A model generated the notes under the pieces. It made no database searches. It saw nothing but the letters and a program-made list of their open reading frames with translations, and had not been told where the DNA came from. From positions 1-42,276 of the IMG/VR virus record IMGVR_UViG_3300020219_000004: a stretch of 42,276 nucleotides of DNA; one strand, written 5' to 3'. The DNA comes from a virus. The position numbers and the translations under genes are program-made. Each line of letters opens with the position of its first letter. Position 1 is the stretch's first letter. Positions 21,244-29,716 of the stretch are shown here, piece by piece.

Positions 21244-22311
21244 TTATACTGTCGTCACACCGGTTCGCTTGCTGTGTCGGCGAGTAGAACCAGAGATTAA
21301 GTTACCTAAGCACATGAATTGACCAATGTCAGAGTACTGAGCGTGTGGTTTCTGGAGACCAGACCATTGGATTGGGTAGTTACGTCCGTATTCTGAGTAA
21401 ACTGAATCGACTTGTCCTGATACTTTGTAGGATGTCAGACCAACACCCTTTAGGTTGTACCAGTGTAGGTATTCCTCGTTCAAGTAGTACACAACACCTG
21501 AAGTACATTTCTCATCAGCAACGATTGGGATACCGCGCCACACAAGTGTTTCAAAGCCGTAGTTGCCCTTGAGACTGTCTTGGCCAGAAAGCGTAACACC
21601 AGGCTTACTATAGGTAGTAATTTGACCCCGTGATAGCGAGTCGTAGTTAGAGCTAATAGCTGGAGTGAACAGGCTTTCCAATAGGTCCCAAGCAACTTCC
21701 GTAGTAACGATAATCGAAGGTCGTTGTCTCTTAGAACTTGCGGCACTTGCGCCTCTCATATCTACTGCCATACCAGCGAATGTCAATGCTCCACCTGAAG
21801 CGGCAGTAACAGTTGAGTTCAACTGAGTGTAAGTAGTACGAGTAAGTCCAGCGTAAGTTGAGGTGTTAGCCCCAGCATCTACAATTTTTTCCAGTCCAGT
21901 AAAGTCATCACCAGCGCCAACTCCGTAAAGTTGGTCACCGATAGTATCAAGCATAGCGTTCTGTGCTTCCTCTAAAGTGATCTTCGCAAGGTCAAGCACT
22001 TCGGCATCAGTCTTATTAAGAGATACTTCTGTACCACTAAGTGATACGTTCTGGTAGAAATAAGCAGTTTCAAATGCCTGACGGATACGAGTGTCCTGTA
22101 GAGCAGTATCAAAGGCACCAAGACCAGAGAATGAACCACCTGATGTTGGTTTAGCGAACTGTAGTGGAATCATTAGCTGACGGCCACCCCAGTTTTTGTT
22201 CTCACGCATAAACACACGGGATGTGAATACATTAGAGTTCAAAATACCATCTATACTAACCGGTACGTATTTTTCTTCTGTGATTGTCTTTACTCGTTCT
22301 GATAATACCAT
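21244..22311 (-). CDS. Major capsid protein (putative)
   Basis: 355 aa, in the portal-scaffold-capsid order, with a strong SD (TAGGAGACAGAA-ATG). Assigned from position and size only. Confidence 0.6.
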   Translation of the reverse strand: MVLSERVKTITEEKYVPVSIDGILNSNVFTSRVFMRENKNWGGRQLMIPLQFAKPTSGGSFSGLGAFDTALQDTRIRQAFETAYFYQNVSLSGTEVSLNKTDAEVLDLAKITLEEAQNAMLDTIGDQLYGVGAGDDFTGLEKIVDAGANTSTYAGLTRTTYTQLNSTVTAASGGALTFAGMAVDMRGASAASSKRQRPSIIVTTEVAWDLLESLFTPAISSNYDSLSRGQITTYSKPGVTLSGQDSLKGNYGFETLVWRGIPIVADEKCTSGVVYYLNEEYLHWYNLKGVGLTSYKVSGQVDSVYSEYGRNYPIQWSGLQKPHAQYSDIGQFMCLGNLISGSTRRHSKRTGVTTV

Positions 22312-22400
22312 TTCTGTCTCCTAGTTACTTTATATAAAAAACCCGCCAGCTGACTGCCGACGGGCGTATTACTTAGAAGTTAAGCACACTTTATCTATTT

Positions 22401-22429
22401 TTGCAATCGCTGAACGTGATGACTATGAT
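22401..22429 (+). promoter_or_regulatory. Sigma-70-like promoter TTGCAA-N17-TATGAT
   Basis: Read directly; points into the plus-strand ORF 22469..22756, antisense to the late operon. Confidence 0.4.
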
Positions 22430-22468
22430 GACGACACGAATCGTAACTGGTTCAACAACCGACTAAAC

Positions 22469-22756
22469 ATGCTAAAGCATCATGGTTTGGTCAAACCAGC
22501 TAAAGAGTTTGATAAAGCGAGTAAACGGCATAAAACTGTTGGCGTTGTACTTACTTTAGCTGGTAAAGAGGCATTGGGTTATGTTGATGTTACAAGTAGC
22601 GAGATGCCCGAACACCCCAATGTGTATCGTACGGTGCCTACAAATAAGGCTTCACTTAACGATGTTGCTGCAGCTGTTAAGACGTTTCAAGAGAGTCACC
22701 CAGAGTTTGATGTGGTATTTGACGTGAAGTTTAAGGGGGTACAACCGAATAAATAA
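22469..22756 (+). CDS. Winged-helix-like small protein, probably 5'-truncated
   Basis: LNMLKHHGLVKP...VGVVLTLAGKEAL resembles a wHTH recognition region. The frame stays open for 48 codons upstream (from 22325) with no ATG/GTG/TTG. Confidence 0.45.
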   Translation: MLKHHGLVKPAKEFDKASKRHKTVGVVLTLAGKEALGYVDVTSSEMPEHPNVYRTVPTNKASLNDVAAAVKTFQESHPEFDVVFDVKFKGVQPNK

Positions 22757-22857
22757 AAAAGATAGCGTATTTACGCCCGAGTTAGGAGCCTTGGAAAGCT
22801 TCAGTCTCCATATAAGACACTGATAACCCTAACTCGGACGCAAGCACACTATCATCT

Positions 22858-22952
22858 GGTGTACCGGAAGTGGGGGTGTGAATGGCTAGGTGAGCCTTAA
22901 ACCCCGAAACCTGTCTTTGGTCGTAAGACCTCACCCTCACTTCTAGTACACC
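22858..22952 (+). ncRNA. Long-hairpin structured RNA candidate, element A
   Basis: 22858..22878 pairs with 22932..22952 over 21 positions (18 WC, 2 G-U, 1 mismatch). The apical region contains GGTC-GTAA-GACC (GNRA-type loop). Confidence 0.4.
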
Positions 22953-23020
22953 AACAAGTGCATAGTATAACCCGAACCTATTAAATTGTCAATGTACTTT
23001 CCCTGTTACGGTCATGTTTC

Positions 23021-23029
23021 TGTTATAAT
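23021..23029 (+). promoter_or_regulatory. Extended -10 promoter TGTTATAAT
   Basis: Exact TGnTATAAT; the same 9-mer recurs at 30255..30263. Confidence 0.35.
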
Positions 23030-23090
23030 GATAGCATAACTTAAATAAAGGACAATTCAGTCGTGGGTAAAAAGAAGTTCTTAGAATTTA

Positions 23091-23261
23091 TCAAACTGGC
23101 TTCCCAGCCCTTGCCAAAAGGAGCGAAAACACGTTTTCGTCTTGATATAATTCCCCTGACTTCTCTGGGTGAAATTTAGCACCTAAAGGGTCACCATTAA
23201 CTTGCCACATCTTATAATGTTCAGCACACCAACCTCGTGCTATATACTTTTTCCAACATCC
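23091..23261 (-). pseudogene. Remnant of an HNH-type homing-endonuclease gene
   Basis: Open frame with no usable start: GCWKKYIARGWCAEHYKMWQVNGDPLGAKFHPEKSGE... The CxxHYxxWxxxGDP motif is typical of actinophage HNH-associated zinc modules. Confidence 0.45.
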
Positions 23262-23385
23262 TTAGAGAAAGACGTGAAGTTACGCTAGAGACGCTGGCTC
23301 AGGACATCAAAGAGTATGAGCGCATTAACCCTAGTATTGAATTGAACCTAGAAGTGAAAATCAAAAAAGAGGCTGTGCCTATGGT

Positions 23386-23511
23386 GTAGACAATAGTGTG
23401 TATGCGGGTGCTATGGGATTGTCTATGACCTTAGCAAGTCGAAAACCCTGCAGGTTGGACATGAAAGGTTCGCCCCTAGAAAACCATAGTACCCGTATCT
23501 ACACTATCTAC
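23386..23511 (+). ncRNA. Long-hairpin structured RNA candidate, element B (paralog of A)
   Basis: 23386..23416 pairs with 23484..23511 over 28 positions (24 WC, 3 G-U, 1 mismatch, one 3-nt bulge). Apical motifs are shared with element A. Confidence 0.4.
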
Positions 23512-23549
23512 TAAAAGATAGCACAGTATCTAAAATAAACCTATTCGGT

Positions 23550-24452
23550 TTACAGAGAGTCCAAAACAGACATGTGAATATCATCTAAAGTTAGACCCGA
23601 TGGTGGAGCTTCCATAATCTTAGGCTTATTAGCTGCACCGCCACCAGTCCCAGCACCAGATACCATAGCTCCACGTTTCTTTTTATCTTCAGCAACCTTG
23701 GCTTTAGCTTCAGCACCAGTATCCTTGCCTTTACGACCTTCATGCAGTTCATATCCCGTGGCAAAGTCTATTACCCTACCTTCTGCGAGCTTTTCGTTCA
23801 TTATAGCGAACACAGCATCTGTAACAACTTTCTTTTCTGTTTCATCACTAGGCAGACTTTTAGCATCAGTTAAGATTTTTATGTCCTTATCCCAGTCAGC
23901 TTTTATGGCATCTATCCTAGCGGAGCGTTCTGCTTCCTCAGCTTTAGTTTCAGCGTCAGCTTGAGCTACGCGGTCACTAGCAGACTTCTCGGTAAACTTT
24001 TGAACAACTTGTCCCCAGTGTTTATAAGTAGCTGGTTCAAAGTCATCAGGCACTTCATCCAGGTTATTAAAATAGTGAATCCCACCATCCACGTCTTTAA
24101 CGGTAATCTTGCCTGGGCCTTTTTTGGTGGTGTCTTCGTTTAGTTCAGGGGCTGGTTCATCTTCTTCGGGCTTCTCGGCTGGAAGCTGTTTGTCAGGAAT
24201 TGCAGCTCCCACGGGTGCTTCTCCAGCGTCAGCGTCCTTGGATTCATCCTCATCACCGGCCTTATCGTCGCCATCGGCTGCATCTTTATCAGCCCCGGCG
24301 TCTTTATCGCCGGTATCGGAATCGTCTTTGGCACTATCATCATCATCCCCCTCATGTTCTAATTTAGCTATAGTTTGGTCATGGACCTGTGCGAGTGTTA
24401 GTACTTCTTCTTCTTTTTTGGCTTCATCTTTTTTCTCCTCTTTATCTGCCAT
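23550..24452 (-). CDS. Scaffolding protein (putative)
   Basis: 300 aa, strongly acidic D/E/K/A-rich and helical, located between the portal and capsid genes. Confidence 0.55.
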   Translation of the reverse strand: MADKEEKKDEAKKEEEVLTLAQVHDQTIAKLEHEGDDDDSAKDDSDTGDKDAGADKDAADGDDKAGDEDESKDADAGEAPVGAAIPDKQLPAEKPEEDEPAPELNEDTTKKGPGKITVKDVDGGIHYFNNLDEVPDDFEPATYKHWGQVVQKFTEKSASDRVAQADAETKAEEAERSARIDAIKADWDKDIKILTDAKSLPSDETEKKVVTDAVFAIMNEKLAEGRVIDFATGYELHEGRKGKDTGAEAKAKVAEDKKKRGAMVSGAGTGGGAANKPKIMEAPPSGLTLDDIHMSVLDSL

Positions 24453-24495: not shown

Positions 24496-26757
24496 TTACT
24501 TCTTTTTGGTAGGCTTCTTTTTCTTCTCAGAGTCTTTCTTGGCTACTTGCTTTTTCTTTATTTCATGGTCATCTTCTACCATGGTTTGTGAGTGCTGTTG
24601 CTGTTGAGCCTTCAGCTTCGTATCTATAGCCGATTGCTGGGCTTTCATTTCCAAAGTCTGCTGGATGGGTGAAGGAGTTTTAGACGGTTGGTAGCCATTG
24701 GCGGCTTCCATCTGGCGTTTAATTTCCTCAGGGGCATCTTTGTAATTCACGATTTGGTCGGGAGGTATAGGTTCCTGAGGAGCTTGTTGTTGCTGAGGAG
24801 GTTGAGCATTAGGGTCTAGGAGGTTCTGCTGGGGCTGATTGCCCTGATTAGTCTTATCCATGTCCTCCTGAGTAGGTGCTTGGGTCTGGAAGGCTTCCAT
24901 TTGCTTCTGAGCCTGAGCCTGGACTATCTTCATCCACTCCATATACATCTGTTTTACAAGGTCGGGTTGTTTTTCAAACGAACCAGTCAGAATGTAGTTA
25001 TTCATAAATTTAAGGTATTCTTCGCCTATTTCATCCCTAGGAAGTGGCATCTCACCACGGTTCAGAATCTGAACATCTATAAAGGCTTCGCGTGAAAACT
25101 CGTCTTGCTTAGCCTTGCCCATGAAAGCAATCGGGTCAGTCTTGAATAATATAAACCTCTCAAGTAGTTTCTGGGGACTAGCGAGATTGCCTCCAGAAAG
25201 CACCTCATAAACCGACAGAGGGTCTATCAAACCTTGCTGAATCAAGGATTCCATAGCCTCCTGCTGGCGTTGCTTATTAACAGGCAGCATAGACCCTACC
25301 CCAACTTTAAGATCAATACCATCTTCTATAGCATCTTGTTTCATTACTAGGTAATCAAACTTCCCGTCCTCACCAACGGCTTTGAAGTAGTGTTCTTCTG
25401 TGTAATAGACTTTCATCATCTGAATGAGGTATCGGTAGTAATTCGTGGCGGTACGCTCTATAGCCCTAGCTATGTCGTCCATACGGGTGTAATTTTGCTC
25501 ACGTTGCATTTGGTCTTGGCCCAGAGTTTTATTACCACTGCGTTCGCCACGGGTAACTTCCTGCGTAGCAAAGATATTATCTATTTCATTCCTAGCATCT
25601 AGCTTATCCTCAATGACGTAGCTCGGAAGAGGTGGAGGAGCAATCCGAGCCACGGCATCACGGACAGAACCTTTGACACCGATTCTCTCATCCGGACTTC
25701 CAACTAATTTACCTATATCAGCCTTATCTATCATTTGGGTATTAAAGACTAAACCAGACCCAGCCATCTCGGCGTTCTCCATAATCTGGAAACCCCGACG
25801 GTCAAGTATTCTTTGTAGTGGAGCCGCCTGCTCAACCATCGAGGTCAAATCAATGTATGAAGTACCATCATTCAGATAGTTAATCGGAAAGAATGGTGGG
25901 ATAGGAATATCTAAAAAATTACCCGTAAAGCCTTCTTCGTCTTCATAATTCCAGTTAGGGTTACGAATCTTACCTAATACATATTGAGACTTAATATCCG
26001 TCAAGGCCACGCCAGACTTATACCCATCTTCAAAATAATGGAACCAGGTTTCCCATATATCGTGCTTCTTGGCTAATTGAGACTTATAAGCTACGCGCTT
26101 ACCTTCTTTATCCCTGCGGTCTACGCCAGCCATTTCTAAAATCTTTTCCTTAGAGTCTGGGAACATTGATAGTAATTCTTCTACTGTTTTGTTTCTGATC
26201 TTATGAGAGGTGAACCGAGGGTTATCACCCCAACGAGCGTCTTTATCTACGACAATATCTTCAGGAGGAATAGCTTCAGGGACAATCTCACCATTTTTAC
26301 CCGCCAAAGGGTCCCAACGTAACTTAACAAAGCCTATGCGTTTTAGCAGAAGATTTCGCGCCCCAATCCTAAAAATATCAAGAGCACGGAACTTATCACT
26401 GTGAGCATGTAAGACTTTAGATAAATCTTTAGCAGCCTGTTCGCTTATAACTGTATCCTGGGCTGGCATAATGTCTACAACCGGAATACGGGAGTTTACA
26501 ACTGAAATAATTGTCTCTACAGAAATGAAAATTCGAGGGTCTTGGTATAAATATTCTTCTTGGAAGTCATAGACGTTTTTATCTCCCCAGTGGTTAGGCA
26601 TCCACAGGTTCATATTATCTTCACGGGCAGCTTTTAAGCCGTTGAAATTATCCCAGTAAGTTTCAGACTCTTCTAGGGGTTTTTTGATAAGAGCTAGTAA
26701 GTCGTCGTCTTCTAGTTCAAGGTCAAATATGCTGCCTTCGTCTGATGTATCTTCCAT
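24496..26757 (-). CDS. Portal protein (putative)
   Basis: 753 aa, immediately downstream of the terminase block, with a Q/P/K-rich C-terminal tail. Assigned from position and size. Confidence 0.65.
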   Translation of the reverse strand: MEDTSDEGSIFDLELEDDDLLALIKKPLEESETYWDNFNGLKAAREDNMNLWMPNHWGDKNVYDFQEEYLYQDPRIFISVETIISVVNSRIPVVDIMPAQDTVISEQAAKDLSKVLHAHSDKFRALDIFRIGARNLLLKRIGFVKLRWDPLAGKNGEIVPEAIPPEDIVVDKDARWGDNPRFTSHKIRNKTVEELLSMFPDSKEKILEMAGVDRRDKEGKRVAYKSQLAKKHDIWETWFHYFEDGYKSGVALTDIKSQYVLGKIRNPNWNYEDEEGFTGNFLDIPIPPFFPINYLNDGTSYIDLTSMVEQAAPLQRILDRRGFQIMENAEMAGSGLVFNTQMIDKADIGKLVGSPDERIGVKGSVRDAVARIAPPPLPSYVIEDKLDARNEIDNIFATQEVTRGERSGNKTLGQDQMQREQNYTRMDDIARAIERTATNYYRYLIQMMKVYYTEEHYFKAVGEDGKFDYLVMKQDAIEDGIDLKVGVGSMLPVNKQRQQEAMESLIQQGLIDPLSVYEVLSGGNLASPQKLLERFILFKTDPIAFMGKAKQDEFSREAFIDVQILNRGEMPLPRDEIGEEYLKFMNNYILTGSFEKQPDLVKQMYMEWMKIVQAQAQKQMEAFQTQAPTQEDMDKTNQGNQPQQNLLDPNAQPPQQQQAPQEPIPPDQIVNYKDAPEEIKRQMEAANGYQPSKTPSPIQQTLEMKAQQSAIDTKLKAQQQQHSQTMVEDDHEIKKKQVAKKDSEKKKKPTKKK

Positions 26758-26917: not shown

Positions 26918-27164
26918 TCATATTAATCAACAACCGATAGTGAGCGTGGCATAACTTACAACGTATATTGATAGCTACCCCAAAGTCTATCAAAGGCATT
27001 GGAGTTGAGATAATCTTGTCTACTGTCCCTTTCACGTCAACTATCGTTCTTTTGCAAAACAAGCAATTCAACGGCTCCATCTCCGGTGTATCATCGCTCA
27101 ATAAATAAATAGATATTGGCGGCGAGTACCTATGGTCCTTAAATGGCTTTTCGTAATAACTCAC
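26913..27164 (-). CDS. Small zinc-ribbon protein
   Basis: 83 aa with CLFC...CKLC; its start overlaps the TerL stop. Confidence 0.5.
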   Translation of the reverse strand: MSYYEKPFKDHRYSPPISIYLLSDDTPEMEPLNCLFCKRTIVDVKGTVDKIISTPMPLIDFGVAINIRCKLCHAHYRLLINMN

Positions 27165-29716
27165 GTTACTCTCCGTCTTTTATTCTTAACTAAACTGCGT
27201 TCTATAAAAGCATCAAAATCCATACCCAAAGCATTCTTCGTACTAACGGTATTATGCTTACTATCTACAATAATACCAGAACTCTTCCTGGTAGCCGAAG
27301 GTCTCACCCCGCCTGCGGAGTCTGGCCCCATAGAAAAAGATTGCCCAACACGGAAATAAGCCAGCGCATGACAATTACTAACTAAAATACCGTTAGCATA
27401 GTATTCGTGTTCACCTTCAACCGTTAAGTTGTAAACGTTTCTTTTCCCTAAACTTTCGGGCGTGGATACGATTGCTACAGGCTTTTGAACACCACTTATT
27501 ATTTTGTCGCCAATGAGAAGTAACCTTCGTACCACATCCAATACAGTCAAAAATAATTGGTTCTTCCAAATAGAAAGCTTTTTGCGCATTATCTCGTAAG
27601 TGTTGCTTCCCCTTTTTGGATGCCAACCAAGCATGCGATTTGATACGAACCTCGTCCAAGTGTTCCCTGTTCCGCTTGACATATTCTGGGTCGGTAAATC
27701 GCTCCAAGTTATGATGCGTACGGTGTTCGCTATCTTTAATAAGGATGAGATTACCAAGGGAGTTGTTGAGAGGATTGTGGTCTTTGTGATGGACGACAAA
27801 CCCCATGGGGATGCTGCCATTGTGCGATATCCAAAACTCTTGGTGATAACGTTTCCGTCCCTTGCCCCGTTCCGTACTTCCTGAGGTAAAGTAAACTCTA
27901 TCGCTTCTATTTTTTGAATCTGGATATCTACGATATATAACGCCTTGAAAAATAATTGCTTCGGCTTTTGCCATGTTTTAATTCTATCAGAGTATGCCAA
28001 AGCATGCAACTCTACGAAACCTTTTTCTGTAGCCACTTTATGATTAGGTGTAGCAATAAGCTCCGCACCATTACTGAATTTATATTTATTAACTGCCGCG
28101 TTTTTCTTAGTCATCCATGCCCGACTAACCCTCCTGTAACCCTTGCTAGTCAGGGCATAATCACCAACTTGAACATTTTTTATCTTAATATCCCCTCGTA
28201 AAGTTTTAATAAGCGAATCCCCAGAAATGCACCAGTGGTCAGGTTTATTCTCCTTCGTGAGCCATCTAGCCTTAGGGATACCCCTAGTATCAGGCACCAC
28301 TACCCTATATACATTTTCGACATGCTTTATCAAATCCTCTAAATCTTTTGGCTCCTGGAAAAACCTCATCTTCCCACTCGTCACATCAGCTGCCAAAAGG
28401 TCAAAAAGTTTAGTCCTATCAGACTGTAAGACCCCAAAATCCATCCCTTCCTTGCGTTTGCTCACTTCCATGCTCGTAGAATTATCTGGTGAATAATAAT
28501 GCACATAGACGCGTCCAGGGTACTTCCTGGATAATTGTTCGGGAATGGTGAAGTCCGGTAGGGCATCTATTACGGCGGTAGCGTTATACATCGTTATAAG
28601 TCTCTCAATATCCTCCCAGTCGGTAGTCTTCCCATAACTGAATATTCCTGAAGGATTGCCCATCACCCAATGTTTTTCTTTCCCTGAGTCACAGCCTATA
28701 ATCACATCCCGCTTCTCCGCGAGGGCAGGTTGGCAAGCCCGTAAGACAGACTCTCTATTGATAAGAAATTCAGAGGCCTGATAAGGTAAACCGAGAACGA
28801 AGTTATGAAACACCTCAATATTCATAGAAGCCTTCTGCTGTAGAATCTTCCGCGCGCTCACCCAAGGAATCATCAACTGAGACAACCAGTAACCCCTCCG
28901 ACCTATCATATGCCCCTTAACCCACCTCGGCCCCCTTTGAGGGAATCTAGGTAGCCAGCGGCCCTTCTGACGGTCATGCTCCATCAATTCCTCGTTACAT
29001 GACCCACAGGCATAAACTTCCCTCTCCTCATCTATATAGTGATTCTTCTCACCTTTTTCAAAATCCATAAACCACTCATGCCCACAATGCCCGCAGGTAA
29101 CAAACCAGTGCATCTGATCTGAGTCCTGATAAAGCTCATGCACCCCGAAGCCTGGTATGCTCGGATTGCTAAACCTCCAAAACCACCCATAATCAGAAGC
29201 CTGTAGCCTAGACTGATAAACCGTAAGAACCCCCTGGTCACACCTATCATACTCATCGGCCACAATAAGGTCGGCAGTTGTGCTTATCGCTTCTTTTTCA
29301 GTAAACGCTCCCCTAAAATATATCCACCTATCACCAACATTTTTAAGTGAAACCGAGTCATCGCCCTTGACCATCTTCCGTATCTCCGGATTCCTATCAA
29401 TCATCGGATTAACTTTCGGCCTTACGAAATCATTCACAACATTTTTCGTCGGTAAAACGTAAATAACATTTAATTTCAAAAAATTAGCAGCATGGATGCT
29501 TTTTAAGATGGCCGCCACACTCCATCCCACCTGAGCGGACTTCATAATCACCTGGTCTGGGGAAGAGTCAGAATAAGGCTGAAGCATAAATCTATGCTTA
29601 GAAAACTCAAAAAGTTTCTGATTCTCATTTATAAGGTTTGAATCTAACACCCACATAGCGGGGTTAATCATGTGAGTTTTGGCTCTTAGCTCTTCTCTAT
29701 TTAACTCTGGCTCCAT
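27161..29716 (-). CDS. terL: Terminase large subunit (lambda GpA-like), interrupted by an intein
   Basis: Walker A-like KSAQVGWS, Walker B LIVADEYD, and GpA-type zinc ribbon CGHCGHEW...CGSCNEEL. After the intein, the C-extein resumes CHALAYF. Confidence 0.85.
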   Translation of the reverse strand: MEPELNREELRAKTHMINPAMWVLDSNLINENQKLFEFSKHRFMLQPYSDSSPDQVIMKSAQVGWSVAAILKSIHAANFLKLNVIYVLPTKNVVNDFVRPKVNPMIDRNPEIRKMVKGDDSVSLKNVGDRWIYFRGAFTEKEAISTTADLIVADEYDRCDQGVLTVYQSRLQASDYGWFWRFSNPSIPGFGVHELYQDSDQMHWFVTCGHCGHEWFMDFEKGEKNHYIDEEREVYACGSCNEELMEHDRQKGRWLPRFPQRGPRWVKGHMIGRRGYWLSQLMIPWVSARKILQQKASMNIEVFHNFVLGLPYQASEFLINRESVLRACQPALAEKRDVIIGCDSGKEKHWVMGNPSGIFSYGKTTDWEDIERLITMYNATAVIDALPDFTIPEQLSRKYPGRVYVHYYSPDNSTSMEVSKRKEGMDFGVLQSDRTKLFDLLAADVTSGKMRFFQEPKDLEDLIKHVENVYRVVVPDTRGIPKARWLTKENKPDHWCISGDSLIKTLRGDIKIKNVQVGDYALTSKGYRRVSRAWMTKKNAAVNKYKFSNGAELIATPNHKVATEKGFVELHALAYSDRIKTWQKPKQLFFKALYIVDIQIQKIEAIEFTLPQEVRNGARDGNVITKSFGYRTMAASPWGLSSITKTTILSTTPLVISSLLKIANTVRIITWSDLPTQNMSSGTGNTWTRFVSNRMLGWHPKRGSNTYEIMRKKLSIWKNQLFLTVLDVVRRLLLIGDKIISGVQKPVAIVSTPESLGKRNVYNLTVEGEHEYYANGILVSNCHALAYFRVGQSFSMGPDSAGGVRPSATRKSSGIIVDSKHNTVSTKNALGMDFDAFIERSLVKNKRRRVT
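27374..28231 (-). mobile_element. Intein (286 codons, TerL aa 496-781)
   Basis: Block A CISGDSLI, block B ELIATPNHKV, block F VYNLTVEGEHEYYANG, block G ILVSN followed by Cys+1. The penultimate residue is Ser, not His. Confidence 0.8.
27417..27974 (-). CDS. HNH homing endonuclease, encoded inside the intein in a different reading frame
   Basis: 185 aa: YRRYPDS...VVHHKDHNPLNNSLGNLILIKDSEHRTHH plus a C-terminal CIGCG...WCSKACSNR zinc ribbon. Start 27974 is 2 mod 3, while TerL codon starts are 1 mod 3. Confidence 0.8.
   Translation of the reverse strand: MAKAEAIIFQGVIYRRYPDSKNRSDRVYFTSGSTERGKGRKRYHQEFWISHNGSIPMGFVVHHKDHNPLNNSLGNLILIKDSEHRTHHNLERFTDPEYVKRNREHLDEVRIKSHAWLASKKGKQHLRDNAQKAFYLEEPIIFDCIGCGTKVTSHWRQNNKWCSKACSNRIHARKFREKKRLQLNG

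What the first reader, a model, noticed from the sequence alone, without database searches (positions are those of the whole stretch)
22312..23549. Antisense island between scaffold and capsid genes with two paralogous long-hairpin RNA candidates
About 1.24 kb between the scaffold stop (23550) and the capsid start (22311) has no minus-strand ORF, although it sits inside the late operon. It contains:
1. A TTGCAA-N17-TATGAT promoter, plus a plus-strand wHTH-like ORF whose frame is open for 48 codons upstream with no start codon. This indicates 5' truncation.
2. Element A: 22858..22878 pairs with 22932..22952.
3. A TGTTATAAT extended -10 at 23021.
4. Gene debris: an HNH-type fragment on the minus strand (23091..23261) and an HTH-like fragment ILRERREVTLETLAQDI on the plus strand (about 23259..23388).
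5. Element B: 23386..23416 pairs with 23484..23511.

Elements A and B share these features:
- Apical motifs TG[GT]CTA, TGA, CCTTA, CGAAA(A)CC(C)TG and TTGG.
- A small hairpin that changes compensatorily: GGTC-GTAA-GACC in A versus GGAC-ATGAAAG-GTTC in B.
- A 3' flank: GCATAGTAT..AACCTATT in A and GCACAGTAT..AACCTATT in B.

Their long stems are unrelated in sequence but both pair, which is within-genome covariation. The non-WC positions are mostly G-U on the plus strand and would be C-A on the minus strand. That favours plus-strand RNAs antisense to late transcripts.

Possibilities include an accessory RNA module, RNase III-type processing sites, or the ends of a decayed mobile insertion.
Basis: partly seen in the sequence, partly recalled or inferred. 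Interest (0 to 1): 0.75.

Follow-up and report, generated by a model that had tools for sequence, protein, structure and literature searches.

The report
Decayed host transposon cassette with hairpin RNAs
The 1.1-kb gap between the phage scaffold and capsid genes is a broken piece of bacterial mobile DNA: two truncated copies of a small DNA-binding-protein gene, each followed by long hairpin RNA elements, around a dead IS1595-type transposase. The hairpins are real and conserved elsewhere, but they most likely belong to the opposite strand from the one first proposed and were imported with the insert rather than evolved by the phage.

Summary
Hairpins A (22856-22955) and B (23386-23511) exist and fold far better than shuffled sequence. 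A third hairpin, C (22761-22853), was missed. Six related phages have only about 90-170 bp between scaffold and capsid, so 22407-23549 is an insertion.

The insert holds:
- a 5'-truncated winged-helix gene from an unannotated ~150-aa family;
- hairpins C and A;
- a minus-strand sigma70 promoter, TTGACA-N17-TATACT;
- a truncated small basic ORF;
- hairpin B;
- a promoter remnant cut by the insert edge.

At least 12 metagenomic loci with intact cassettes show the same order: gene stop, A-run, one or two long hairpins, then a promoter on the antisense strand. Some of these loci lie in Saccharibacteria genomes, and most are next to an IS1595-family transposase. Both hairpin types show compensatory changes. 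Type C has conserved G-U pairs and a U-run on the antisense (window minus) strand.

A-B paralogy is weak; B resembles type C more than type A. No Rfam, Pfam or defence-database family matches. Whether the RNAs do anything for the phage is untested.

The parts
22312..22406 (-). Ancestral scaffold-capsid intergenic block. Reading 5'->3' on the minus strand: a promoter-like block starting with TTGCAA (22406->22401), a terminator-like hairpin (22365->22341) with a U-run, an AGGAGA RBS, and the capsid ATG at 22311.
   Evidence: The same block lies directly after the scaffold stop in relatives L001-L006. The hairpin was found by the terminator scan.
22407..23549 (.). Inserted island of 1,143 bp, absent from related phages.
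   Evidence: Relatives have 90-170 bp between scaffold and capsid. The flanks align up to TTGCAA on one side and the scaffold stop codon on the other.
22407..22756 (+). 5'-truncated winged-helix gene, copy 1. It belongs to an unannotated ~150-aa family. The frame is open from the insert edge, and the internal ATG at 22469 gives 95 aa.
   Evidence: 46-61% identity to P0002-P0005 across the full retained length. The family has 217 clusters. The AF2 model is a winged helix with pLDDT 82, with weak MarR/PadR-like matches.
22750..22760 (-). U-run (UUUUUUAUUUA) directly 3' of hairpin C on the minus strand. On the plus strand it is the A-run after the winged-helix stop codon.
   Evidence: Read from the sequence. 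The same A-run is present in L007, L016, L017, L018, L032 and L034.
22761..22853 (-). Hairpin C (type hp1): a 25-bp stem capped by two small apical hairpins.
   Evidence: Minus strand -52.5 kcal/mol against -37.0 for plus. Across 6 loci, 9 pairs show compensatory change and 96% of cells are paired, with 0 of 500 shuffles as good. G-U pairs are conserved on this strand. Model R2 scores it 101 bits.
22856..22955 (-).
   Evidence: z -5.1 on plus and -4.4 on minus. Homologous hp2 hairpins occur in L016, L032, L034 and L035. 10 pairs show compensatory change and 92% of cells are paired. An A.C mismatch is conserved on the minus strand, which is a G.U on the plus strand.
22964..22992 (-). Sigma70-type promoter TTGACA-N17-TATACT. 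It points into hairpin A, then C, then the U-run, predicting an RNA of about 200 nt.
   Evidence: 11 of 12 consensus matches. An equivalent promoter lies in the same place in L015, L016, L017, L018, L025, L030, L032, L034 and L035 (and read).
23021..23179 (+). Extended -10 TGTTATAAT (23021-23029), SD AAGGA (23048-23052) and a small basic ORF MGKKKFLEFIKLASQPLP... (23063-23179). The ORF is truncated here by the transposase deletion.
   Evidence: The promoter, SD and ORF (34-67 aa, starting with ATG, GTG or TTG) are conserved in L015, L016, L017, L030, L032 and L033. The ORF overlaps the transposase 3' end in antisense.
23091..23261 (-). Internally deleted remnant of an IS1595-family DDE transposase. 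The C-terminal peptide YQDENVFSLLLARAGKPV** lies at 23147-23091. A Zn-ribbon-like piece, LGAKFHPEKSG, lies at about 23154-23186.
   Evidence: The position relative to the hairpins and spacer is the same as for the intact transposases of L016, L017, L030 and L032. DNA alignment A6 supports this. Peptide matches to the L018 and L030 transposase ends are statistically weak on their own (E 0.07-0.3).
23273..23389 (+). C-terminal stub of a second, divergent winged-helix gene copy (..VTLETLAQDIKEYERINPSIELNLEVKIKK..).
   Evidence: hhalign against the family profile aligns it to profile columns 118-149 of 154, with E 4e-5 and probability 70%. As in all cassettes, it is followed at once by a long hairpin.
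23386..23511 (.). Hairpin B, the single hairpin of cassette copy 2. The strand of action is unresolved.
   Evidence: z -5.2 on plus (-51.7 kcal/mol) and z -3.7 on minus (-43.9 kcal/mol). The closest hairpins are those of L015 and L025 (z 6.4-6.6). R2 (C-type) scores it 30.9 bits and R1 (A-type) 16 bits.
23521..23549 (-). Promoter remnant for B: a -10-like GATACT (23530->23525) and the spacer AATAGGTT (23545->23538). The -35 position is occupied by the end of the scaffold gene, so the insert edge cuts the promoter.
   Evidence: Read from the sequence. The spacer and -10 are shared with the A promoter. The scaffold stop lies at 23550-23552.

Best explanation
The interval 22407-23549 is a horizontally acquired, partly decayed fragment of bacterial mobile DNA, probably from the phage's Saccharibacteria-like host.

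Source structure (shown by comparison). In its source the DNA is built from a recurring cassette with these parts:
- a ~150-aa winged-helix protein gene;
- directly after its stop codon, one or two long hairpins;
- a sigma70 promoter on the opposite strand that fires back into the hairpins, ending at a U-run that abuts the stop codon;
- a divergent extended -10 promoter with a small basic ORF;
- usually a convergent IS1595-family transposase.

What the window keeps:
- Cassette copy 1 without its 5' end: the truncated gene, hairpins C and A, and both promoters.
- A transposase with most of its body deleted.
- Only the tail of cassette copy 2: a gene stub, hairpin B, and a promoter that has lost its -35.

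Mechanism in the native cassette (inferred). The antisense promoter makes a short, highly structured RNA of roughly 100 nt with one hairpin or 200 nt with two. That RNA is fully complementary to the 3' end of the winged-helix mRNA, so it would act as a cis-antisense regulator. Its hairpin plus U-run would also terminate the convergent transposase transcript.

In the phage (inferred). The hairpin-RNA strand is the late-gene strand, so the A+C unit can still be made from its intact promoter. B, A and C would also be copied as part of any read-through from the scaffold gene. Hairpin C plus its U-run would stop such read-through. The capsid gene is unaffected because it keeps its own promoter block downstream of the insert. 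The island is most likely tolerated cargo rather than a phage-evolved RNA module.
For: Insertion:
- Six relatives with capsid proteins 68-86% identical go from the scaffold stop straight to the capsid promoter block.

Cassette identity:
- Full-length homologues of the truncated ORF exist.
- In L007, L015 (two hairpins, one on each side), L016, L017, L018, L021, L025, L030, L032, L034 and L035 the stop codon is followed by a long hairpin.
- L032, L034 and L035 carry the same tandem hp1+hp2 pair as window C+A.

Structure:
- hp1 has 25 pairs, 96% of cells paired, and 9 pairs with double changes against 2.8+-1.3 in shuffles (0 of 500).
- hp2 has 23 pairs, 92% of cells paired, and 10 pairs with double changes against 5.5+-1.5 (2 of 500).

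Strand:
- The hp1 alifold energy is -38.8 on the antisense strand and -26.6 on the sense strand for the same alignment, with 15 G-U cells against 6.
- G-U pairs are conserved at three stem positions.
- A U-run follows on the antisense strand in the closer relatives.
- An antisense promoter with 9-12 of 12 matches lies 6-22 nt from the hairpin base. In the window, where hairpin A intervenes, it is 45 nt from the base of C.

Transposase link:
- A Pfam DDE_Tnp_IS1595 gene is adjacent in L015, L016, L030, L031 and L032. Transposases identified by peptide similarity rather than Pfam lie next to L017, L018 and probably L033.
- The window spacer and transposase end align to L016 and L017.

Host link:
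- L030's ribosomal protein L10 is up to 82% identical to Candidatus Saccharibacteria genomes.
- The capsid's best GenBank phage hit is a TM7 phage.
Against: - No transcript data exist. The promoter, terminator and RNA product are consensus-based predictions.
- The strand signal is mixed. The B-type hairpins (window B, L015, L021, L025) fold 8-9 kcal/mol better on the ORF strand and lack an adjacent U-run on the antisense strand.
- hp2 carries a conserved A.C mismatch on the antisense strand, which is a G.U on the sense strand.
- The transposase-remnant assignment rests on synteny plus an 18-residue peptide match that is weak by itself (E 0.07).
- No terminal inverted repeats or target duplications were found, so the limits of the mobile unit and how it entered the phage are unknown.
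- The retained 118 codons of the winged-helix gene contain no stop or frameshift. This could mean a recent arrival, or that something is still under selection.
- The closest cassette homologues lie on short contigs of unknown taxonomy.
Confidence: 0.65

Rival explanations
1. A and B are paralogous plus-strand small RNAs, antisense to late transcripts, and form an accessory RNA module of the phage.
For: - A and B fold somewhat better on the plus strand: -46.4 against -44.5 kcal/mol for A, and -51.7 against -43.9 for B.
- hp2 has a conserved G.U on the plus strand.
- A conserved plus-strand extended -10 at 23021 could drive a transcript through hairpin B.
- There is weak apical similarity between A and B.
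Against: - No plus-strand promoter lies upstream of A. The native one was lost with the gene's 5' end, and the 'TTGCAA' -35 belongs to the minus-strand capsid promoter block.
- A is physically coupled to C, which clearly prefers the minus strand and carries the minus-strand U-run.
- B matches the C-type model better than the A-type model.
- The A-B apical similarity has p about 0.035.
- The shared flank is a minus-strand promoter.
- The island is absent from six relatives.
Confidence: 0.1
2. The hairpins are only unusually long, bidirectional transcription terminators or insulators between the convergent winged-helix and transposase genes. No separate RNA gene exists, and the 'promoter' is incidental or serves another purpose.
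For: - The hairpins sit exactly between convergent genes in L016, L017, L030, L032 and the window.
- A U-run follows hp1 on the transposase strand.
- The scan calls part of C a terminator.
Against: - The stems are 23-30 bp with branched apical domains, far beyond terminator needs.
- Two hairpins in tandem occur in 4 loci.
- Hairpins persist where no convergent gene exists, in L007 and L025.
- A near-consensus promoter sits within about 6-22 nt of the hairpin base in about 10 loci, including cassettes with only 24-27% protein identity.
- Distant members lack any U-run.
Confidence: 0.17
3. The hairpins act at the DNA level. They could be transposon ends, MITE-like inverted repeats, cruciform recombination sites, or binding sites for the winged-helix protein or the transposase.
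For: - They are strongly associated with IS1595-type transposases in varied orientations.
- The palindromic stem base ATAGYGT...ACRCTAT recurs in window C and B and in L015, L018, L025 and L035.
- The mixed strand preference of G-U/G-T pairs fits a strand-neutral DNA role.
- The L024/L030 homology breaks inside the hairpin loop.
Against: - Stem sequences differ almost completely between copies, even within the window, whereas transposon ends and MITE copies are conserved.
- The position is fixed at the gene's stop codon, indicating co-inheritance with the gene rather than independent insertion.
- No terminal repeats or target duplications were found.
- hp1 keeps three conserved positions that pair only as RNA G-U on one strand.
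Confidence: 0.08

Closest known systems
Convergent cis-antisense RNA pairs that overlap at their 3' ends and share a terminator hairpin (for example the par locus RNA I/RNA II of plasmid pAD1, and B. subtilis txpA/RatA or bsrG/SR4). This comparison rests on my own knowledge.
   Same: - A small structured RNA with its own promoter is transcribed towards the 3' end of a protein gene.
- It is complementary to the 3' end of that gene's mRNA.
- The hairpin plus U-run lies at the overlap.
   Different: - The partner here is a 150-aa winged-helix protein, not a short hydrophobic toxin.
- The stems are much longer and often tandem.
- No toxicity or RNA interaction has been shown.
- There is no sequence or Rfam relationship.
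Antisense control RNAs of insertion sequences (IS10 RNA-OUT, the IS200 antisense RNA). This comparison rests on my own knowledge.
   Same: - A stable long-hairpin RNA is encoded inside or next to a transposase-bearing element.
- Divergent or overlapping promoters sit in a compact control region.
   Different: - Those RNAs pair with the 5' translation-initiation region of the transposase mRNA. Here no excess complementarity to either gene's initiation region was found (z -0.01 to +1.8).
- The RNA here overlaps the 3' end of an accessory gene.
IS1595-family insertion sequences that carry passenger genes (the ISfinder groups ISNwi1, ISSod11 and ISNha5, recalled from memory).
   Same: A DDE_Tnp_IS1595 transposase with a Zn ribbon lies next to an extra gene. 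It occurs in many genomic contexts, and here in a phage.
   Different: - The ends and target duplications were not identified.
- The transposase orientation relative to the cassette varies.
- The cassette also occurs without a transposase (L007, L025).
- In the window the transposase is a non-functional stub.
Phage capture of a host antitoxin RNA (phage PhiTE acquiring ToxI repeats to escape ToxIN; Blower et al. 2012, recalled from memory).
   Same: A phage carries a fragment of a host protein-plus-RNA locus in which the RNA part is intact and the protein part is not.
   Different: - There is no evidence that the cassette is a toxin-antitoxin or defence system. PADLOC gave nothing.
- The RNA here is antisense-encoded, not a tandem-repeat pseudoknot.
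- No phenotype is known.

Membership tests
Any Rfam family (including HEARO, hammerhead, 6S and known sRNAs) | Covariance-model score at or above the family's gathering threshold | tested here: not met
   - Window 22000-24000 at E<=10 gave only chance-level hits: sroD at 22 bits against a threshold of 50, and a miRNA at 17 against 79.
- Six cassette loci gave only sub-threshold miRNA-precursor-like hits on the hairpins.
   - There was no Pfam hit at E<=10.
- The only hit was PHROG 5351 at E 0.003, over 24 N-terminal residues outside the catalytic core.
- Synteny assigns the segment to a transposase instead.
IS1595-family insertion sequence | An intact DDE_Tnp_IS1595 transposase with an N-terminal Zn ribbon | tested here: not met
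   - The window has only about 57 codons of debris, carrying the C-terminal peptide and a Zn-ribbon-like piece.
- Intact genes with both Pfam domains exist in L015, L016, L030, L031 and L032.
IS1595-family insertion sequence | Terminal inverted repeats flanked by 8-bp target duplications | tested here: inconclusive
   - Inverted-repeat searches in L015, L016, L018, L030 and L031 found no convincing pair bracketing the transposase, with or without the cassette.
- The window insert is truncated at both edges, so no ends are expected there.
Intrinsic (rho-independent) terminator | A G+C-rich stem-loop followed directly by a U-run on the transcribed strand | tested here: met
   - On the minus strand hairpin C is followed by UUUUUUAUUUA, and the same holds in L007, L016, L017 and L018.
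- This is not met for A or B, nor for the distant cassettes L015, L021 and L030.
- The stem length and branching are atypical for a terminator.
Independent small-RNA gene (cis-antisense) | Own promoter immediately upstream and a terminator downstream, conserved across homologous loci | tested here: met
   - The window has TTGACA-N17-TATACT with 11 of 12 matches.
- L018 has 12 of 12, L030 11 of 12, L015 10 of 12 and L007 9 of 12.
- Promoters were read by eye in L016, L017, L025, L032, L034 and L035.
- These are consensus matches only. No expression has been shown.
Independent small-RNA gene (cis-antisense) | A detected transcript and a demonstrated effect on the overlapping mRNA | not testable with these tools
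   This needs strand-specific RNA-seq or northern blots, plus genetics.
Conserved structured RNA (covariation criterion) | Base pairs maintained by compensatory substitutions beyond the shuffle and register-shift controls | tested here: met
   - hp1 has 9 pairs with double changes against 2.8+-1.3 (0 of 500). Slid registers give 27-46% of cells paired against 96%.
- hp2 has 10 pairs against 5.5+-1.5 (2 of 500), and 92% against 31-48%.
- Only 5-6 sequences were available, and the shuffle control is not a probability.
MITE / repeated palindromic element | Near-identical copies, especially the terminal repeats, dispersed in a genome | tested here: not met
   - A, B and C have unrelated stems, with pairwise z 0.8-3.5.
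- No further copy exists in the 42-kb window or in about 190 kb of Saccharibacteria loci.
MarR/PadR-type winged-helix regulator (for the ~150-aa protein) | A significant profile or fold match to the family | tested here: inconclusive
   - HTH_34 matched in 6 of 70 members, best E 2e-4.
- TcaR (MarR family) matched at E 0.01.
- Foldseek gave a winged-helix core only, with E>=5e-3 and TM about 0.35.
- The fold is a winged helix, but family membership is not established.
Known anti-phage defence or toxin-antitoxin system | A match to a PADLOC or NCBIfam model | tested here: not met
   No consistent hit was found among 70 family members.

The most novel reading that the evidence does not exclude
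The winged-helix/hairpin-RNA cassette may be a host-encoded regulatory, addiction or defence module of Saccharibacteria-like bacteria in which the antisense hairpin RNA neutralises or tunes the protein's expression. On this reading the phage has kept precisely the RNA half (an intact promoter, hairpins A+C and a terminator) while losing the protein half, and it uses the RNA as a molecular mimic to disarm the host's own cassettes during infection.

A wilder variant, which I rate at no more than 0.03, is that the variable hairpin RNA works together with the adjacent IS1595-type DDE transposase.
Probability: 0.1. Interest if true: 0.75.

Novelty: new variant of a known kind. Interest (0 to 1): 0.4.

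Why it matters
For this phage the result is deflationary. The 'antisense island' is imported, broken host DNA and not a native late-operon RNA module.

The work does expose a recurrent, unannotated cassette with four components:
- a winged-helix protein family with 217 clusters at 50% identity;
- one or two covarying long hairpins with their own antisense promoter;
- a small basic ORF;
- usually an IS1595-type transposase.

The cassette occurs in uncultivated bacteria, including Candidatus Saccharibacteria. That gives a concrete candidate for a new cis-antisense RNA family in CPR bacteria. It is also a marker of gene flow between a probable Saccharibacteria phage and its host, and a testable case of a phage retaining only the RNA part of a host protein-RNA locus.

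Tried and rejected
- blastn of the island against 50,697 phage records: no match.
- tRNA/tmRNA scan of the window: none.
- Rfam at permissive thresholds on the window and on six cassette loci: nothing real.
- Protein-pattern scans for the winged-helix family in GTDB genome representatives and in IMG/VR: no relatives.
- tblastn of the winged-helix protein against PLSDB plasmids and GenBank phages: none.
- Pfam, PHROG, PADLOC, NCBIfam and PDB sequence searches: only weak winged-helix signals.
- A possible fourth element at 27243-27404 (an inverted repeat plus GCATAGTAT): rejected, because it lies inside the terminase/intein coding sequence and the motifs are codons.
- MITE or attC-like readings: rejected, because the stems are not conserved between copies and there are no R'/R'' boxes.
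- Hammerhead-like reading of the CUANGA...GAAA motifs: rejected by Rfam.
- Trans-antisense pairing of the hairpin RNA with the translation-initiation regions of the winged-helix or transposase genes: no excess complementarity in 5 loci.
- Search for IS terminal repeats and an empty site: none found. Thirty-three Saccharibacteria loci around rplJ lack both the cassette and the transposase but gave no clean boundary.
- Literature searches for IS1595 with passenger genes or ncRNA: nothing relevant.
- A second contig carrying the window's ORF (L029): 100% identical, so uninformative.
Full report
CONTEXT
The window is a tailed-phage genome with its late genes on the minus strand:
- large terminase, 27161-29716
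- portal, 24496-26757
- scaffold, 23550-24452
- major capsid, 21244-22311

The capsid's best GenBank phage match is a TM7 (Saccharibacteria) phage at 37% amino-acid identity.

CHECKING THE OBSERVATION
The interval has no long minus-strand ORF. Both hairpins are real:

| Hairpin | Plus strand | Minus strand |
|---|---|---|
| A | -46.4 kcal/mol (z -5.1) | -44.5 kcal/mol (z -4.4) |
| B | -51.7 kcal/mol (z -5.2) | -43.9 kcal/mol (z -3.7) |

None of 200 shuffles does as well in any of the four folds.

The one other case, 27243-27396, is inside coding sequence.

THE ISLAND IS AN INSERTION
Six related phage contigs were found, with capsid proteins 68-86% identical. In these, the scaffold stop is followed within 0-80 bp by three features:
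- a promoter-like block (for example TTGCAAAAATATGTAAAGTGTGCTTAACT in L004 and L006);
- a terminator-like hairpin;
- an RBS and the capsid ATG.

The window keeps that block on its minus strand at 22406->22312. It is nearly identical to L004, reading TTGCAAAAATAGATAAAGTGTGCTTAACT.

The foreign segment is therefore 22407-23549 (1,143 bp).

WHAT THE INSERT IS MADE OF

a) A truncated winged-helix gene.
- The plus-strand ORF is a 5'-truncated member of a ~150-aa protein family. It is 46-61% identical to P0002-P0005 over all 118 retained codons, and about 35 N-terminal codons are missing.
- A profile search of 1.84 billion representative proteins finds 217 clusters, 140 of them at E<=1e-10.
- None has a Pfam, NCBIfam or PADLOC assignment beyond weak winged-helix signals.
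- The AlphaFold model (pLDDT 82) is a winged helix followed by a C-terminal helix. Its Foldseek matches to MarR/PadR/forkhead-type domains are only weak.

b) Hairpins follow the stop codon in the intact cassettes.
- In 11 of the 14 full-length or near-full-length homologue loci examined, the stop codon is followed at once by a long hairpin, usually after a short A-run.
- These loci are L007, L015, L016, L017, L018, L021, L025, L030, L032, L034 and L035. L019 and L020 show no clear hairpin. In L024 only the 5' arm remains.
- In L032, L034 and L035 there are two tandem hairpins, exactly as in the window.
- The first (hp1) is homologous to C. The second (hp2) is homologous to A and shares a mid-stem AGTGGG/CTCACT motif.
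- L007 and L017 have only hp1. L016 has only hp2.

c) A conserved promoter on the antisense strand.
- Beyond the hairpin or hairpins, on the strand antisense to the ORF, lies a near-consensus sigma70 promoter pointing back into them.
- The window has TTGACA-N17-TATACT at 22992->22964, with 11 of 12 matches.
- Other loci scored by the scan: L018 12 of 12, L030 11 of 12, L015 10 of 12 and L007 9 of 12.
- The promoter can also be read directly in L016, L017, L025, L032, L034 and L035.
- For B the same flank is present, but the -35 position is occupied by the last codons of the scaffold gene. The insert edge therefore cuts that promoter.

d) A small basic ORF.
- Next comes a divergent extended -10 (TGYTATAAT), an SD, and a small basic ORF reading M(G/S)KKKFLEL..LAAQPLP.
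- It is 34-67 aa long, starts with ATG, GTG or TTG, and overlaps the 3' end of a convergent gene in antisense.
- The window copy (23063-23179) diverges after about 26 codons.

e) A transposase remnant, not an HNH.
- The convergent gene is an IS1595-family DDE transposase with a Zn ribbon in L016, L030, L031 and L032. A partial copy is seen in L017 and probably in L033.
- In L015 the transposase lies upstream and divergent. In L018 it lies downstream in the same direction. L007 and L025 have none.
- The window's minus-strand debris ends in YQDENVFSLLLARAGKPV**. Compare CPVLLELAGKPV in L018 and IFPLLVARAAQQV in L030.
- The debris also contains LGAKFHPEKSG, which resembles the Zn-ribbon VGVKFHPITGRQG of L018.
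- The peptide statistics are weak (E 0.07). However, the DNA from the hairpin to the transposase stop aligns with L016 and L017.
Pfam finds no HNH.

f) A stub of a second winged-helix gene.
- It is followed immediately by hairpin B.
- It is therefore the stub of a second, divergent cassette copy.

g) Overall layout. On the plus strand the window reads, in order:
1. truncated gene 1
2. hairpin C
3. hairpin A
4. antisense promoter
5. small-ORF promoter
6. truncated transposase (minus strand)
7. truncated gene 2
8. hairpin B
9. truncated promoter

This is what one gets by joining the L016/L032-type arrangement to the L015-type arrangement.

ARE THE HAIRPINS STRUCTURED RNAs, AND ON WHICH STRAND?

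Covariation:

| Type | Loci | Pairs | Cells paired | Pairs with compensatory change | Shuffled controls | Register-shifted pairing |
|---|---|---|---|---|---|---|
| hp1 | 6 | 25 | 96% | 9 | 2.8+-1.3 (0 of 500 reach 9) | 27-46% |
| hp2 | 5 | 23 | 92% | 10 | 5.5+-1.5 (2 of 500 reach 10) | 31-48% |

Strand evidence for hp1:
- hp1 clearly favours the strand antisense to the ORF, which is the window's minus strand.
- The same alignment gives alifold -38.8 kcal/mol on the antisense strand and -26.6 on the sense strand. The G-U cell counts are 15 and 6.
- Three stem positions are conserved G-U/U-G pairs that would be C-A on the other strand.
- Single-sequence energies agree. Window C folds at -52.5 kcal/mol on the minus strand against -37.0 on the plus strand.
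- In the closer relatives a U-run follows on that strand.

Strand evidence for hp2 and the B-type hairpins:
- hp2 is nearly strand-neutral and carries one conserved A.C mismatch on the antisense strand, which is a G.U on the sense strand.
- The B-type hairpins (window B, L015, L021, L025) fold 8-9 kcal/mol better on the ORF strand and lack an adjacent antisense U-run. L015 and L025 nevertheless keep the antisense promoter.
- The strand evidence is therefore strong for C, follows for A because A lies between C and the promoter, and is unresolved for B.

ARE A AND B PARALOGUES?
Only loosely.
- Their apical similarity gives z 2.4, and 69 of 2000 shuffles reach it. Over full length, A against B gives z 3.5, while B against the L015 and L025 hairpins gives z 6.4-6.6.
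- With default filters, covariance models built from hp2 (R1) and hp1 (R2) recover only their own type, plus L021 (E 4e-8 with R2) and L016's hp2 hairpin (E 0.039 with R2).
- With filters off on the island, B scores 30.9 bits with the C-type model and 16.0 bits with the A-type model.
- Any long hairpin gains some score with such models, so these numbers rank similarity rather than prove homology.
- The best description is that C is hp1 of cassette 1, A is hp2 of cassette 1, and B is the single hairpin of a divergent cassette 2.

ORIGIN
- L030, L031 and L024 place a distant cassette (24% protein identity) between a tRNA-Leu gene and rplL/rplJ on contigs of up to 950 kb.
- L030's ribosomal protein L10 is up to 82% identical to Candidatus Saccharibacteria MAGs.
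- Together with the TM7-phage-like capsid, this suggests the island was picked up from a Saccharibacteria-like host. That is an inference.
- The closest cassette homologues (49-61% identity) lie on short contigs of unknown taxonomy.
- Thirty-three representative Saccharibacteria loci around rplJ lack the cassette.

MECHANISM

Shown:
- The architecture is conserved down to 24-27% protein identity.
- The stems covary.
- The promoter and U-run consensus elements are positioned as described.

Inferred for the native cassette:
- The antisense promoter produces a structured RNA of about 100-200 nt.
- That RNA is complementary to the 3' end of the winged-helix mRNA, which has no terminator of its own before the hairpin.
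- This gives cis-antisense control, and it doubles as the terminator for the convergent transposase.
- No excess complementarity to either gene's translation-initiation region was found. A trans-acting mechanism like IS10 RNA-OUT is therefore not indicated.

Inferred for the phage:
- The RNA strand is the late-gene strand.
- The A+C unit retains its promoter and terminator and may be expressed.
- Read-through from the scaffold gene would be stopped at C.
- The capsid gene keeps its own promoter block.
- I put about 0.9 on 'decayed insertion of this cassette DNA'.
- I put about 0.6-0.7 on 'minus-strand RNA gene in the native cassette'.
- I put about 0.2 on any function for the phage.

COMPARISON WITH KNOWN SYSTEMS
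- By layout, the cassette works most like convergent cis-antisense pairs that overlap at a shared 3' hairpin (pAD1 par, txpA/RatA; from my own knowledge). It also resembles the antisense control RNAs of insertion sequences.
- It fails membership of type I toxin-antitoxin systems because the protein is a winged-helix protein, not a small toxin.
- It fails membership of every Rfam family.
- The window copy fails the IS1595 test for an intact transposase, and no ends were found.
- It is not a MITE, because the stems are not conserved between copies.

VERDICT
- The sequence features are real.
- The preferred interpretation (plus-strand paralogous RNAs of the phage) is not supported.
- The 'decayed mobile insertion' alternative is supported and can now be named.
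- The underlying cassette and its hairpin RNAs appear to be undescribed, which gives the finding moderate interest (0.4).

Noticed in passing
window 27161-29716 (minus), nested ORF 27417-27974 (minus): The large terminase gene carries an intein (CISGDSL...YANGILVSN|C). Inside the intein region, in a different frame, there is a free-standing 185-aa HNH endonuclease ORF containing HHKDHNPLNNSLGNLILIKDSEHRTHH.
   Followed up: partly
window 22312-22406 (minus); L001 5911-6000; L003 5885-5991; L004 5757-5836: All relatives and the window place a promoter-like block upstream of a terminator-like hairpin with a U-run, directly before the capsid RBS. The capsid leader therefore begins with a terminator-shaped hairpin. 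This could be a 5' stabiliser or an attenuator.
   Followed up: partly
window 23063-23179 (+); L016 877; L017 1411; L030 3682; L032 971; L015 164: A conserved small basic ORF (34-67 aa, M(G/S)KKKFLEL..LAAQPLP) has its own extended -10 and SD. It lies antisense to the last codons of the IS1595-type transposase. Start codons vary (ATG, GTG, TTG), but the reading frame is kept.
   Followed up: partly
L030 2833-2922, L024 3809-3898, L025 3782-3872: In three distant cassette loci a tRNA gene (Leu-taa or Arg-tct) lies divergently about 80-130 bp upstream of the winged-helix gene start.
   Followed up: no
L024 4521 / L030 3521: Homology between two syntenic Saccharibacteria-like loci breaks inside the hairpin's apical loop and resumes at the rplL stop. 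L030 has the hairpin 3' arm, the promoters and the transposase there. L024 instead has an unrelated 218-aa ORF.
   Followed up: partly
L007 7000-12462; L008-L014: One cassette variant (P0004, found on 17 contigs) sits between an HD-domain gene and a type I restriction-modification operon. It has no transposase, and the neighbourhood looks like a defence island.
   Followed up: no
window 27243-27263 / 27376-27396 and 27396-27404: A 21-nt inverted repeat with 112 nt between the arms is followed by an exact GCATAGTAT. It looked like a fourth element, but it lies within the terminase/intein coding sequence and is probably chance.
   Followed up: yes
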